Below are positions 11,661 through 54,907 of a stretch of 64,000 nucleotides of DNA, piece after piece. The DNA lies in assembly GCF_006345805.1 (NCBI RefSeq), contig NC_043002.1:60760001-60824000 (forward strand), written 5' to 3'. Positions within the stretch are counted from its first letter, which is position 1; every line of letters starts with the position of its first letter. Source of the stretch: Octopus sinensis. Its lineage: Eukaryota. The notes under the pieces were generated by a model, which ran no database searches, had not been told where the DNA came from, and was given only the letters and a program-made list of their open reading frames with translations. A program made the translations under genes and the position numbers.

Positions 11661-12666
11661 TATATATGTAAAAGTAAAAAAAATATACAAACTGGGACAG
11701 GAACGTGAAACATTTAGAAGACGACACAAAAAACACGTACGGGACTTTCAAAGCCCTCAGTCATCAGTCAAGAACCGGATCATCTTCGCAATTTCGGCTG
11801 ATTAATCTTGAGATTGCTCCGATCTGGGCAGCCCCCAAGGGAAATCTAAGCCAAGCGCATAAGATTCCTTGGAAGAAAGCCTCGAAAGTATACAACACAG
11901 GGACGGAAAACGGACGATGTTACACGAATAAAAATACAAAAATACGTAAAAACAATAATGATAGCACGAATAAGAATACAAAATACGTAAAAACAATAAT
12001 AACAAAACCAGGACGTCAGGACAAGCGTCTTTTCGACAGGACGAGTTAAGTTTTGGGCTGGCTATGGAAGAGTGTCTTAAGACCACAGGAGAACAAACAA
12101 ATACGTGTTGCCACAATGACTACAGGATGCGAAAAGGCAGTAGTCGCTGGCTGGTCACGTGAGCACAAAAAAGAGGAGAAAGGGACAGATGAAGAGAGAA
12201 AGAAGGGGAATAAGGGGGGAGAAGAAAGTGAGGGAAAGAGACAGGTCGAGTGGGGTGTAAGGTGTGAGAGGCAGAGAAATGTAGGAGAGGGGGACGGAAA
12301 AGAGAGAAAGAAAGAAGGGGAACAAGGGAGGAGAAGAAAGAGAGGGAAAGAGACAGATCAAGGTGAGTGCAAAGGGTGAAGGCAGAGAAATGTAGGAGAG
12401 GGGGGGAAGAGACAGTGTAGTAGAGTCATACAAATGTTAGAGAGTAATATACTTACGTATAGGGTCAAAAGGTGGGTACGTAGCCGCCATGTATATATGT
12501 AAAAGTTTAAAAAAATATACAAACTGGGACAAGAACGTGAAACATTTAGAAGACGACACAAAAAACACGGACGGGACTTTCGAAGCCCTCAGTCATCAGT
12601 CAAGAACCGGATCATCTTCGCAATTTCGGCTGATTAATTTTAAGATTGCTGCGATCTGGGCAGCCC

Positions 12667-22634: not shown

Positions 22635-23215
22635 CTTTTCTACTCTAGGCACAAGGCCCAAAATTTTGGGGGAAGGGGACAGTCGATTAGATCGACCTCA
22701 ATACGCAAGTGGTACTTAATTTATCGAACCCAAAATAATGAAAGTCAAAGTCAACCTCGGCGGAATTTGGACTCAGTGCGTCAGGACAGACAAAATATCT
22801 ATTTCTTTACTACCCACAAGGAGATAAACACAGAGGACAAACAAGGACAGACAAACAGATTAAGTCGATTATATCGACCCCAGTGTGTAACTGGTACTTA
22901 ATTTATCGACCCCGAAAGGATGAAAGGCAAAGTCGACCTCGGCGGAATTTGAACTCAGAATGTAACGACAGACGAAATACTTATTTCTTTACTACCCACA
23001 AGGGGCTAAAGATAGAGAGGACAAACAAGGACCGATAAACGGATTAAGTCGATTATATCGACTCCAATGCGTAACTGGTACTTATCTAATAGACCGCGAA
23101 AGGATGAAAGGTAAAGTCGACCTCGGCGGAATTTGAACTCAGAACATAACGGCAGACGAAATACGGCTACGCATTTCGCCCGGGTGTGCTAACGTTTCTG
23201 CCAGCTCGCCGCCTT
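22635..23215 (-). mobile_element. SINE family B trimer with target-site duplication
   Basis: One head at 23215 and three ~183-bp bodies. Flanked by AAAGCAGAGAACAATATT (22617-22634) and AAAGCAGAAAATAATATT (23216-23233). Confidence 0.88.
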
Positions 23216-27440: not shown

Positions 27441-27721
27441 GTGGAAGCGCAATGGCCTAGTGGTTAGGGCAGCGAACTCGCGGTCATAGGATCGCGGTTT
27501 CGATTCCAGACCTAAAAACTCCACGAGGCTTCGGCAGGGGGTGGTAGCGATCCCTGCTGTACTGTTTCGCCACAAATTTCTCTCACTCTTTCTTCTGTTG
27601 GCCTGCCCGCTTAGCCAGCGGGGTGGCCTCATTTGAAGGCTAAAACAATGCGAAGCGCATTGTGACCATCGATGTGTAGCAAAATCTGATAGCCTGGTCG
27701 GTCACGGTGATCACGGTGATA
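27441..27721 (+). mobile_element. tRNA-derived SINE
   Basis: TGGCCTAGTGGTTAGGGCAG A-box, GGTTTCGATTCC B-box, (TCACGGTGA)2 tail. Confidence 0.8.
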
Positions 27722-27729
27722 TATACACA

Positions 27730-28078
27730 TATACATTATAGGGGAAGACAATTTCTTATAAATCTCCGAGCGAGAGATATACAGTAATAGTACCAAATAG
27801 TAAAGCTTATATGCCAACAGATGTGGCACCCCTATAAAGGGCGATGTTACTGTGGTTTTAGCCCCTGCAAAAGATCTTTTCCAGTTGGCCATCAACACAT
27901 AGCCTATATCCGTAGAGCATTAGCTAGGTAGGTCATCGCAGCCATTTCTATACTAACGTGATACACGCAGACTGTATGTCGAAAGCCAGTTGGAAAAGAT
28001 ATTTTCCTGGGGCTAAAATAGCAGTAACATCGTCCTTTATAGGACTGCCACATTCTGTTGGCGTATAAACTTTACTAT
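27730..28078. repeat. Fold-back of the ~355-bp family (~108-bp diverged arms)
   Basis: 27797-27905 pairs with 27968-28078; homologous to 47425-47860. Confidence 0.85.
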
Positions 28079-33584: not shown

Positions 33585-35485
33585 TGGTTTCAGATTTTGG
33601 CATAAGACCAGCAACCTCGGAGTGCGAGGGAGTCGATTACATCGAACCCAGTGATCGACTGGTACTTATTTTATCGAATCAGAAATGATGAAAGACAAAG
33701 TCGATATCGGCAGAATTTGAACTCGATACCTAAAAGCTGCAGAAATGCCTCTAATCATTTTGCCCAACGTGTTAATGATTCTGCCAGCTCGTTGCCTCTT
33801 TCAACCATGAAATATTAACGGTCCGCATTACAATTATTTCTATTAAAGGTACAAGGCCTGAAATTTGTGGGGAGAGTACAGGTCAATTACATCGACCCGT
33901 GTTTCACGGGTACTTAATTTATCGACCCCGAAAGGATGAAAAATAAATTCGAGAATTGGCAGGATGTGAACTCAGTATGTAGCGGTCGGCGAAATATCTA
34001 TTTCTTTGCTACCCACAAGGGGCTAGACACAGAAAGGACAAACAAGGACAAACAACGGATTAAGTCGATTATATCAACCCCAGTGCGTAACTGGTACTTA
34101 TTTAATCGAAACCGAAAAGAAGAAAGGCAAAGTCGACCTCGGCGGAATTTGAACTCAGAACGTAGCGGCCGGCGAAATACCTATTTCTTTACTACCCACA
34201 AGGGGCTAAACACAGAGAGGACAAACAAGGACAGACAAATGGATTAAGTCGATTATATCGACACCAGTGCGTAACTGGTACTTATTTAATCGACCCCGAA
34301 AGGATGAAAGGCAAAGTCGACCTCGGCGGAATTTGAACTCAGAACGTAGCGGCAGCCTTATGTTCCGTATGAAAACGTAATCGTATCTGTAACGTTATTA
34401 ATTCATAAATGAACAAATGACAGCACACTGTGAGGCACTTAGCCAGTTTGGTAGTTTACTTGTAATTAAGCACCAGTTGCGCACTGGGATCGATATAATC
34501 GACTGGTCCCTCCCACCAAAAGTCGGGTCTTGTGCCTAGAGTTGAAAAACAAATATTTGATAGTTTACGCATTTGTATTATAATTGTTTATATAATTGTT
34601 TATGCATTTGTACGTCGTTTATTTTATACTCTGAGTATTTAGGTTGCCATAATCAGCTCTGATATATTAAGAAAACGATTTTCTTATGAAAAGACACAGT
34701 CCAATATAAAATCACACCAGTATTGCCTTCACAAAACTGGCAGTTTAGTGGTTTTGTCATAATCCTTTCTTCTACAGGTACAGGGCCTGGAATTTGAGGG
34801 GACATAGCTAGTCGATTACATCGACCCTAGTGCTCCACCAGTGCTTACTTGATAGACAATAGAAGAATAAAAATGTCGACCCCAGCATTGTTTGAACTAA
34901 GAACTAAAGAACGGATGCATTTTGCCCGGCGTGCTAACGATTCTGCCATCTCACCGCCTCTTAGTTTTATTATAAAGGTTTCAAGTTTGGCACGAGGCCA
35001 CAAATATCGGGGCAAGTGCTAAGTCCGTTACATCAACCCCACTGCTCGACTGCTACTTATTCTATTGACCCCTCGAAAGAATGAAAGGCAAAGTTTGAAC
35101 TGTCGTGAGGCATTTTTTCCGGCGTGTTAACGGTTCTGCCAGCTCACCGCCTTATTTTGCTTTCGTTACAATCAGAACGAAATAGTAGGGAAATGACAAA
35201 ACCATCACGGGCCAGTAACAACAAAATTTGATGTCATAAAAATTCTAACGCTACGCAAGCAATAATTGTTTCGAAGTTTAGAACAGAACCAATAATTTTA
35301 GTACGTTGGGTAATCGGTTACATCGGTGCCAGTACATGATGCGTCCGCTACTTTACCGACCACTGAAGAATGAATAGCAAAGTGAAACTCGGTGGTATTT
35401 GATCTCAGGGTATAAAAAGCTGGAAGAAATGTCGGTAAGCAACTATTCCGAGACGCTAATGAGTCTGTTAACTCACCGTCTTGTT
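33585..35485 (-). mobile_element. SINE family B cluster including a head-truncated trimer (33835-34356)
   Basis: Repeated CTGGTACTTA..TATCGACCCCGAAAGGATGAAAGGCAAAGTCGAC bodies with a 183-bp period; older diverged monomers on both sides. Confidence 0.8.
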
Positions 35486-47235: not shown

Positions 47236-47273
47236 TCTTTCTGCTGAAGAGCGTAGGCTCGAAACGTAAAAGA
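47236..47273 (+). ncRNA. Minimal hammerhead-like motif (C at position 6)
   Basis: tcttt-CTGCTGA-a-gagc(gtag)gctc-GAAA-cg-TA-aaaga; helices I and II are perfectly paired. Confidence 0.7.
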
Positions 47274-47424: not shown

Positions 47425-47860
47425 TTGGCAAATATATGTTACGGTTCTGTACAGATACGATTTACATTCTCGCTCGGAGATTTAATATAACATTCTCTTT
47501 CTTCTACGAGATCAGCGACAGTGAGTCGCTAGAAAAATATATAGTAATTTATGAGTGGAATAAGCTTCTATCACTAGCTGGTGATTAAAACATGCTGAGA
47601 AGGGGTAATCTCCCAGAAACTCGAGTCCGTGTGTATCACATGAGGCTAAAGATGGGAGCGATGACCTTCCCTCGCAAACGCTAATAGGACACAGAATGGG
47701 TTTCGTTAGCCAGCTGGAGGAGATGTTTTTCTGGGACTCTAAACATCGGTCGCACTGTCCTGTATAGGACGCCACACCTAGTTGGCAAATATTATGTTAC
47801 GGTTCCGAACTGCTACTATTTATATCTCGCTCAGAGATTTAATACATCCTCGTTCTTATA
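47425..47860. mobile_element. Partial tandem (357-bp period) non-coding element with a conserved structured motif
   Basis: TTGGCAAATAT..TGTTACGGTTC..TCTCGCTCRGAGATTTAATA recurs at 47425 and 47782; flanked by (TA)n. Confidence 0.75.
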
Positions 47861-54249: not shown

Positions 54250-54665
54250 AAAAACTGTAGTTTTCTGGGGTTAAAATTACAATATCATCGTCTCTTTGGA
54301 GAACACCCATGTTAAAATGGCTATAAACAATACTTTTTGGTTCGTATAGTACTTCTAATTCGGACAGAGCTTCTCTAACGGACTACTTTCTTAGCTACAA
54401 AATGAGTAATTGTACGACACTGTATTTTCTATCTATTGCAAGTGAGGTTAATATACTTCCGTGTTCAATAAACGAGTAACCACAACCTAAAAAATCCAAT
54501 AAGATCTAAAGCACGTGGTCTGATGCTCTCAGAGCTAGAATGGCAGAAGTTATCGTCGGTCTGCAATAAATATCGAACGTGAATAGTGCACTGAATAAAC
54601 CAGCTGGAGATGTCTTCCTGAGGTTAAAATTGCAGTATCGTTGTCCCTTAGAAAACACTCACGTT
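54250..54665. mobile_element. Diverged partial tandem (353-bp period) related to 47425-47860 by its conserved motif
   Basis: CTGGGGTTAAAATTACAATATCATCGTC at 54265 and CTGAGGTTAAAATTGCAGTATCGTTGTC at 54618. Confidence 0.6.
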
Positions 54666-54907
54666 AACAGAATTTCATGGAAGCACGCTGTTCCTTCGAT
54701 TTAGCCATCGCAAAAATCGACGAACAGGAGAGATGCTCTAGAAAACAATGTCGCACCACATAGTACTACGACATGCGTCTCCGACGCCAGTTAGCAGACT
54801 GATGCCTGAGCGTCGCATCAAGTAGCCTCTAGCAGCGGAAGTCTGAACTACAACTGACTTGCCCCGCAGATAACGTTGTTTCCAGTTACTTTTGGGTACC
54901 CCCCTTG
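54666..54907 (-). mobile_element. Third mariner family, 5' end fragment
   Basis: TA-CAAGGGGGGTACCCAAAAGTAACTGGAA TIR-like end; ATG at 54708 gives MAKSKEQRASMKFC, matching the mariner EQRxxIKFC N-terminus. Confidence 0.72.

What the first reader, a model, noticed from the sequence alone, without database searches (positions are those of the whole stretch)
47425..47860. ~355-bp tandem family with a conserved non-hammerhead structured motif: candidate unassigned ribozyme
Seen: five related ~75-nt motifs at 47709-47786 (+), 27985-28062 (+), 27813-27889 (-), ~54255-54321 (+) and ~54599-54665 (+). They share GCCARYTGGA..GATNTYT..CTGRGGYTAAAA..CAGTA..[hairpin]..CCAC..TTGGC. An outer helix (GCCAGCTGG/CTAGTTGGC) closes three copies. 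The inner 4-nt-loop hairpin appears as GTCCT/AGGAC, CCCT/AGGG and TCTC/GAGA, which are compensatory changes; it is broken in the 54599 copy. The units are partial tandems (periods 357 and 353 bp) or fold-backs next to microsatellites, the same architecture as the HHR elements. Outside the motif the 47-kb and 54-kb units do not obviously align, and I find no CUGANGA/GAAA core. Inference: the motif may be the processing or RT-recognition RNA of a retrozyme-like family. The opposite strand (GATGT-TA-CTGC..TTTTAGCCCCAG-GAAA) loosely recalls a twister core, but I could not fit twister, pistol or HDV consensus properly.
Basis: partly seen in the sequence, partly recalled or inferred. Interest (0 to 1): 0.8.

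Follow-up and report, generated by a model that had tools for sequence, protein, structure and literature searches.

The report
Penelope-type retrozyme with conserved RNA start domain
The motif is a conserved, predicted folded RNA domain inside a 353-base jumping repeat that also carries an ordinary hammerhead ribozyme sequence; it sits at one of the two fixed points where the repeat's genomic copies end, so it is likely the docking and start signal for a borrowed Penelope-type reverse transcriptase, not a new ribozyme.

Summary
Each ~353-nt unit carries a type I hammerhead about 80 nt upstream of the motif, on the same strand. It is decayed in the 47-kb and 54-kb copies and canonical in a young subfamily (98-100% identical, 834 exact marks). 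Six homologous subfamilies were found (at least 1,909 exact matches). The motif's first hairpin is the best-conserved 30-column stretch of the unit (0.85 against 0.55 for the rest and for the hammerhead). Copies sit mostly in (TA)n and end at two fixed points: site 1 inside the domain and site 2 43-46 nt further on. In fold-backs one arm stops at site 1 and the other runs past it (35 of 40). This is the Penelope-like 'tail' signature of internal reverse-transcription starts. No Rfam ribozyme matches the motif. Verdict: a non-LTR retrozyme (non-autonomous Penelope-like element); the motif is likely its RT-recognition and initiation domain (0.65). The autonomous partner was not found. Binding, cleavage and expression are untested.

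The parts
47425..47857 (+). Subfamily B retrozyme insertion of about 1.2 units (period 357) between (TA)n tracts. Its 5' end is truncated inside the motif's last hairpin and its 3' end is at site 2.
47590..47633 (+). Type I hammerhead, decayed in this copy (G8 changed to A). Palindromic helix III; predicted cut after 47627.
   Evidence: intact homologues
47708..47739 (+). HP1: basal helix P0, invariant AGCT/TGG internal loop and hairpin H1. The best-conserved 30-column stretch of the unit.
47747..47818 (+). Multi-branch junction closed by the long-range helix P5 (47747-47753 with 47812-47818, decayed here). It holds H3 (47757-47770), H4 (47771-47786) and H5 (47797-47809); insertion end site 1 lies near 47803.
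47804..47857 (+). 'Tail' between site 1 and site 2. This copy keeps it and then runs into (TA)n.
27741..27974 (-). Subfamily A fold-back, left arm. It starts 4 nt before the hammerhead cut site, holds the whole domain (27890 to 27781) and ends at site 2.
27971..28078 (+). Subfamily A fold-back, right arm. Motif at 27984-28062; ends at site 1 (28078), followed by ATAT.
54250..54667 (+). Old subfamily C insertion (period 353): 5'-truncated motif 54255-54355, decayed hammerhead 54480-54525, and a second motif 54598-54667 broken off in H4.

Best explanation
The repeat is a ~353-nt non-coding tandem element with a type I hammerhead in each unit (a non-LTR retrozyme), likely copied by the reverse transcriptase-endonuclease of a Penelope-like element (PLE), and the motif is likely the folded RNA domain that this enzyme binds and starts copying from. 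Shown: the unit anatomy and the hammerhead; covarying helices (HP1 plus a P5-closed junction); two fixed 3' ends (site 1 in H5 inside the junction, site 2 43-46 nt downstream); mostly (TA)n targets; scattered 5' ends; arrays that run through the hammerhead cut site. Inferred: (1) A multimeric transcript, or a circle made after hammerhead cleavage, folds HP1 and the junction. (2) A PLE protein, possibly a dimer and possibly of the Hydra clade, binds the domain and nicks (TA)n. (3) It primes cDNA internally at site 1, copies back through the motif and on across unit borders, and stops at random, giving partial tandems. (4) A second priming at site 2 on the other DNA strand makes the inverted arm and the one-sided tail.
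For: Hammerhead at the same place in six subfamilies, with compensatory helices. Structure on 32 copies of five subfamilies: 87% paired, 13 of 27 pairs with a double change, score 0.285 against 0.179 for shuffles (0 of 500 reached it) and at most 0.169 when slid. Separate folds of each subfamily recover P0, H1, P5 and H4 in all five. Subfamily F was fetched after the structure was fixed: 96% paired, with double changes in P5 and H4 (its HP1 was selected by the pattern). Young D domain z -3.9 on + against -2.3 on -. HP1 identity between subfamilies 0.85, rest 0.55, hammerhead 0.55, best other 30-column window 0.72. Ends in D: 9 of 9 visible inverted arms end at unit position 216 or 219. In 12 D loci picked by HP1 only, 7 of 10 visible ends lie at 171-179 and 3 of 4 visible inverted arms at 216. 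Contigs of run X15 break off at 170 (35 contigs) and 173 (15) into (AT)n. In 35 of 40 fold-backs one arm ends at site 1 and the other runs past it; 26 of 30 without D, p 3e-5. PMC11167929: a PLE protein starts at two internal sites that bound the genomic tail, and needs RNA from about -90 to +55 around them; HP1 begins at -94. Young Hydra-clade PLEs in this genome also sit in (TA)n, and one has two 3' ends.
Against: No autonomous PLE carrying the motif was found: none in 42 loci of Hydra family 1, 5 loci of family 2, 10 further flanks or the one Neptune-like copy. The only strong hits there were a D array inserted 3.5 kb downstream of a Hydra ORF (L218). Binding is therefore inferred from position and conservation alone. 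HP1, the most conserved part, lies 60-94 nt upstream of site 1 and could serve another partner. Covariation rests on only five or six subfamily lineages. The strand test is weak: 3 G-U against 1 A-C among 110 family-majority pairs. RNAalifold on the pooled alignment found only HP1 (in another register) and H4, not P5. A 13-column block further on is as conserved as HP1 (0.86). The 47-kb copy itself folds no better than its shuffles (z -0.8). Three of the 10 unbiased D ends lie outside site 1: one at site 2 (215) and two elsewhere (154, 313).
Confidence: 0.65

Rival explanations
1. The element is a PLE-driven retrozyme, but HP1 and the junction serve another step, such as binding a host ligase or export factor, stabilising the RNA circle, or helping the hammerhead fold. 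The end sites are then set by local sequence (H5 and AT microhomology) alone.
For: The most conserved part (HP1) is not at the start site. No PLE with the motif was found. Both ends adjoin AT-rich bases, and CACGAT/CACTAT variants at the junction suggest annealing of the target. In the predicted fold of the whole D monomer the hammerhead is not formed.
Against: P5 encloses site 1 and covaries. The site keeps its position in six subfamilies whose local sequence differs.
Confidence: 0.17
2. The motif is a second, unassigned self-cleaving or ligating ribozyme on either strand.
For: A compact conserved fold with invariant unpaired bases (AGCT/TGG loop, A-rich linker), more conserved than the hammerhead. 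Subfamilies A, B and F have mostly C-A at the base of hammerhead helix II, which may weaken it. Rfam has limited reach: it missed the hammerheads of most old copies.
Against: No Rfam ribozyme match over the motif at E <= 10 in a D dimer or at E <= 5 in 8 loci of A, B, C and E. The twister-like P1 is 76% paired on +, with 40 of 159 cells G-U (A-C on the minus strand) and no double change. 28 5' breakpoints are scattered, 10 of them spread across the motif. D has a canonical hammerhead and still keeps the motif. No match in viral or metagenome contigs.
Confidence: 0.08
3. HP1 is conserved as a DNA promoter element (an internal pLTR-type promoter), not as RNA.
For: An invariant short palindrome and an A-rich stretch follow the hammerhead. 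PLE pLTRs hold an internal promoter (PMC8557442 passage).
Against: Double changes in P0, H1, P5 and H4 call for a single-stranded fold. The TATA-like word is not kept in F. No B-box word was found on the unit strand inside the units of 5 loci scanned.
Confidence: 0.07
4. The motif is the end of a DNA transposon or Helitron-type element, or a neutral leftover.
For: Hairpins near an element end and microsatellite neighbours are also seen in rolling-circle DNA elements (recalled, no call).
Against: Fixed 3' ends with scattered 5' ends, two-site tails, inversions and a hammerhead in each unit. Uneven conservation and covariation.
Confidence: 0.03

Closest known systems
Non-LTR retrozymes of animals (PMC7229834; bioRxiv 10.64898/2026.07.22.740005)
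   Same: Non-coding tandem units of about 350 nt, each with a type I hammerhead; mussel units are 350-390 bp. A palindromic helix III and mismatches at the base of helix II also occur in axolotl. Proposed to be non-autonomous PLE derivatives.
   Different: The passages read describe no conserved second RNA domain, no fixed internal 3' ends and no tail or inversion rule. Here no parent pLTR was found, and circles and cleavage are not shown.
Poseidon PLE of Anolis, PAc (PMC11167929)
   Same: Two internal RT start sites that bound a genomic tail, in a stem-loop downstream of the hammerhead; AT-rich targets; both DNA strands extended; hammerhead cleavage not needed in vitro.
   Different: PAc is autonomous, its starts lie in the ORF (the site at +111-118 is 85-92 nt after the cut) and its tail is 30-40 nt. 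Here site 1 is 173 nt after the cut, the tail is 43-46 nt and there is no ORF. No sequence comparison with PAc was made.
Hydra-clade PLEs (PMC8557442)
   Same: (TA)n targets, hammerheads, partial tandems, inverted 5'-truncated arms. At least three young families are in this genome, with DKT and without CCHH in the one read in full.
   Different: None of those sampled carries the motif. Family 1 has its two ends about 150 nt apart; its predicted long hairpin and long-range helix around one end are an analogy only.
Twister, pistol, HDV-like, hairpin and hatchet ribozymes (Rfam 15)
   Same: Similar size and a multi-helix fold.
   Different: No Rfam match on either strand, and the proposed twister P1 does not covary.

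Membership tests
Non-LTR retrozyme | Tandem units of a few hundred nt | tested here: met
   Periods of 327-396 nt, mostly 347-357, in 50 tandem pairs; an array of 7 marks at ~353-nt spacing
Non-LTR retrozyme | Type I hammerhead in each unit | tested here: met
   Rfam RF00163 at E 5e-6, 32.2 bits against a gathering score of 34. Core intact in D 42/56, B 20/43, F 9/20, A 8/44, C 7/41, E 6/29 units; the rest are decayed or truncated.
Non-LTR retrozyme | No protein-coding capacity | tested here: met
   The unit is too short for an RT. None of the 40 longest open frames in the held loci is a unit-derived gene; one starts in a motif and runs into microsatellite.
Non-LTR retrozyme | Self-cleavage and circular RNA in vivo | not testable with these tools
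   Only assembled contigs were available; a head-to-tail joint fits circles and tandem DNA alike
Non-autonomous Penelope-like element | One-sided tail between two 3' ends | tested here: met
   Ends at 170-173 and 216-219 in D, with matching clusters in A, B, C, E and F; 43-46 nt, a little longer than the 30-40 nt in print
Non-autonomous Penelope-like element | Partial tandems with an inverted 5'-truncated arm | tested here: met
   40 fold-backs scored; window 27741-28078
Non-autonomous Penelope-like element | Microsatellite (TA)n target | tested here: met
   All 20 D loci end in (TA)n on the query-selected side; most other ends do too
Non-autonomous Penelope-like element | Homology to the pLTR of an autonomous PLE | tested here: inconclusive
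   No match in the families sampled; only a few of many PLE families could be read
Twister / pistol / HDV-like / hairpin / hatchet ribozyme | Match to the family's sequence and structure model | tested here: not met
   twister-like P1
Any self-cleaving ribozyme | Site-specific cleavage in vitro | not testable with these tools
   Needs an assay
DNA transposon or Helitron terminus | Two defined termini (inverted repeats, or fixed 5' and 3' ends) | tested here: not met
   5' ends are scattered over the unit and 3' ends fall at two internal sites

The most novel reading that the evidence does not exclude
The domain is a stand-alone RNA handle, conserved across lineages and with no parent pLTR left in the genome, that recruits a telomerase-related Penelope RT in trans and dictates two alternative internal priming sites, one for each DNA strand. 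That would make it the first structurally defined PLE template-recognition RNA and a minimal natural 353-nt substrate for PLE retrotransposition. A bolder branch, a second catalytic RNA, is not excluded (about 0.08).
Probability: 0.35. Interest if true: 0.75.

Novelty: new variant of a known kind. Interest (0 to 1): 0.5.

Why it matters
How animal retrozymes are copied, and what RNA a Penelope-type RT recognises, are open questions. The 2026 preprint argues for a PLE origin from distribution and pLTR homology and says the mechanism remains to be worked out, and the one in vitro PLE study mapped a region of the template rather than a covarying structure. Here a retrozyme shows the PLE tail and inversion signature base by base, and six lineages mark the helices to mutate. 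A near-identical young subfamily with a canonical hammerhead and young Hydra-clade ORFs in the same genome give ready test material. It is not a new ribozyme class on present evidence.

Tried and rejected
Rfam at gathering thresholds on the window: no match. Rfam at loose E-values: only hammerheads and microsatellite-driven miRNA or snoRNA noise. Outer helix and twister-like P1: rejected. Pistol, hairpin, hatchet and HDV fits were tried by eye from recalled consensus features and failed; only the Rfam scans count as tests. Parent search: Hydra family 1, other Hydra families through an Argonauta protein, the Neptune-like copy L120, and single D and F copies gave no motif next to an ORF. The D array 3.5 kb from a Hydra ORF (L218) is separated from it by long simple repeats and is read as a later insertion. 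The HP1 pattern found nothing in metagenome or viral contigs. Sequencing runs: no RNA holder listed. Three runs guessed to be RNA hold contigs over the unit and a head-to-tail joint, which tandem DNA also gives, so this says nothing on expression or circles. Earlier findings of the scan: nothing shown. The automatic end caller was smeared by AT-rich flanks (useless for D) and was replaced. In 'through' includes true site-2 ends, and L143 was misclassed. The L231 folds used wrong coordinates and are ignored. Density could not be measured well: no clear hit in 300 kb from 30 distant stretches, against 8-9 in 164 kb around the window.

Full report
OBSERVATION. The five motifs are at the stated places. 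The genome G000 has 2.72 Gb in 13,516 contigs. I take it to be an octopus from recall; the only named hit that bears on this is an Argonauta protein at 41% identity to a local PLE. The motif is a dispersed repeat: 1,075 exact matches to a degenerate 29-place pattern and 834 to the 30-base variant of subfamily D, with 0 for both reversed controls. These are lower bounds. The window is locally rich: 8-9 hits in 164 kb of window and neighbours, and no clear hit in 300 kb from 30 distant stretches.

THE UNIT. Searches with the three window elements and two neighbours gave subfamilies A (28 kb), B (47 kb), C (54 kb), D and E; F came from the pattern list. Fifty tandem pairs have periods of 327-396 nt, mostly 347-357, and 88 units of A-E align end to end. 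Every subfamily has a type I hammerhead about 80 nt upstream of the motif, on the same strand, with compensatory helices I-III and mostly a palindromic helix III. Rfam scores the D hammerhead at 32.2 bits, E 5e-6, just under the gathering score of 34. The core is intact in 42 of 56 D units and in 20/43 B, 9/20 F, 8/44 A, 7/41 C and 6/29 E units; the rest are decayed or cut off. D is young: its best whole-unit copies are mostly 98-100% identical, with up to 7 marks in a row.

THE MOTIF. The best other 30-column window reaches 0.72, and one 13-column block reaches 0.86. On 32 copies (7 A, 7 B, 5 C, 4 D, 9 E, hand-picked from 61 with a readable downstream part) I tested: P0 (RRCC/GGYT), an invariant AGCT/TGG internal loop, H1 (RGARRA/TYYTCY), an A-rich linker, and a long-range helix P5 (CAGTA with TACTG about 60 nt on) that closes H3, H4 and a small hairpin H5. 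Result: 87.4% of cells paired, 13 of 27 pairs with a double change, score 0.285 against 0.179 +/- 0.010 for shuffles and at most 0.169 for slid controls. The structure was derived from these sequences and related copies inflate the shuffle test, so the useful unit is the subfamily: P0 switches G-C to A-U, H1 has four combinations, and P5 switches at two pairs. Folding each subfamily alone recovers P0, H1, P5 and H4 in all five and H3 in all five, with the + strand lower in energy each time. The pooled fold found only HP1 (in another register) and H4. F, fetched afterwards, fits at 96% over 8 copies, with double changes in P5 and H4 (15 of 500 shuffles reach the score). The young D domain has z -3.9 on + and -2.3 on -; the decayed 47-kb copy has z -0.8. 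Strand evidence from wobbles is weak (3 G-U, 1 A-C). The twister-like P1 has no double change and is rich in G-U on +, which means mismatched on -. No Rfam family other than hammerheads and microsatellite noise was hit, but Rfam also missed most old hammerheads, so its reach is limited.

HOW COPIES END. Counting from the hammerhead cut in D, HP1 starts at 79, H4 ends at 157 and the P5 3' strand starts at 182. All 20 D loci end at 173 into (TA)n, but the query selected that end. The unselected inverted arms end at 216 or 219 in 9 of 9 visible cases (one ran off its locus). In 12 further D loci picked only by HP1, 10 ends were visible: 7 at 171-179, and one each at 215, 154 and 313; 3 of 4 visible inverted arms end at 216 and one at 126. 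Contigs of run X15 break off at 170 (35 contigs) and 173 (15) into (AT)n. A, B, C and E show the same two clusters, for example A 19 and 14 of 37 ending copies and B 18 and 12 of 36 (smeared by AT-rich flanks). In 35 of 40 fold-backs one arm stops at site 1 and the other runs past it; without D it is 26 of 30, p 3e-5 against an even split (three duplicate loci dropped; the classifier is noisy between 'site 2' and 'through'). The 28-kb element is such a case. 5' breakpoints are scattered: 28 scored, none within 10 nt of the cut, 10 in the motif, KS p 0.057 against uniform. One more D arm (L143, left out of that count) ends within about 16 nt of the cut, and the window's 28-kb arm starts 4 nt before it. 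Arrays read through the cut site, so the template was a multimer or a circle (inference).

MECHANISM. This pattern is the PLE signature in print: partial tandems, an inverted 5'-truncated arm, a one-sided 30-40-nt tail and (TA)n targets (10.1101/2021.04.23.441226 and PMC8557442, passages and section 11). PMC11167929 (parts 1-2 of 4 read) shows for an Anolis PLE that the tail lies between two internal RT start sites in a stem-loop, that both target strands are cut and extended, that RNA from +20 to +172 is enough with starts at +111-118, and that hammerhead cleavage is dispensable in vitro. By that precedent sites 1 and 2 are RT starts (inference, strong). The domain spans -94 to +15 around site 1 and is the best-kept part of a unit that encodes nothing, so the simplest reading is the enzyme's binding and start signal (inference, moderate; 0.65).

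PARTNER. The genome holds young Hydra-clade PLEs: a family with 11,464 candidates and open frames up to 923 aa, its own hammerhead, (TA)n targets and two 3' ends about 150 nt apart, and at least two more families. A frameshifted Neptune-like copy with a hammerhead downstream is also held. None carries the motif. The sample is small, so the partner is open; Hydra is a guess from the target.

WHAT IS KNOWN. Non-LTR retrozymes are described in PMC7229834 (passages seen) and tied to PLEs in 10.64898/2026.07.22.740005 (parts 1-3 of 5 read). Seven paper searches listed no description of this family or of a covarying RT-start domain in a retrozyme. PMC10886601 and PMC6962438 (passages) do not bear on it beyond a count of 235 hammerheads in giant squid. 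Repbase, Dfam, subscription journals and all supplements were not seen, and the family may be catalogued there.

VERDICT. The element is a new member of a known class. The motif is real, structured and undescribed in what I could search, but most likely not a ribozyme. Its value is as a testable definition of what a Penelope-type RT recognises, and as sequence-level evidence that a retrozyme is inserted by PLE machinery. Interest 0.5.

Noticed in passing
window 47244-47265 (+); related sequence in L093 near 500 (-): Minimal hammerhead of another repeat family just upstream of the 47-kb element. Further hammerhead-like cores at 12599 (-), 11767 (-) and 30931 (-).
   Followed up: no
window 22681-23164 and 33909-34353: Partial tandems with a 184-bp period.
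   Followed up: no
window 27444-27520: A tRNA-like SINE head next to the 28-kb fold-back, read by eye.
   Followed up: no
L102, L171-L212: Abundant young Hydra-clade PLE family with open frames up to 923 aa. Its hammerhead has a long extended helix II, it has two 3' ends about 150 nt apart, and two fold-backs use one end on each arm.
   Followed up: partly
L213-L220; L221-L222: Two more Hydra-like families. One has a 3' UTR of several kb made mostly of simple repeats. The other has a ~330-nt UTR with a hammerhead-like motif (C in place of U4) about 35 nt from its end.
   Followed up: partly
hammerheads of subfamilies A, B and F; L120 near 2260 (-): A mismatch at the base of helix II (C-A; A-A in the hammerhead downstream of the Neptune-like copy) is kept across lineages.
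   Followed up: partly
D unit positions about 240-252 after the cut (ATCAGYGAC block); window about 47510-47522: A second short block as conserved as HP1 (0.86), predicted to lie in a helix downstream of site 2; role unknown.
   Followed up: no
D junctions, e.g. L132, L133, L136: CACGAT/CACTAT variants at the insertion end suggest that target TA bases overwrite the last three template bases.
   Followed up: no
alignment A1 columns 19-24 with 52-56: A possible loop-to-junction contact on the + strand: 76% paired, G-U rich, no double change.
   Followed up: partly
L093:130-236 (+): A weak seventh variant of the domain (24 bits, E 0.011).
   Followed up: no
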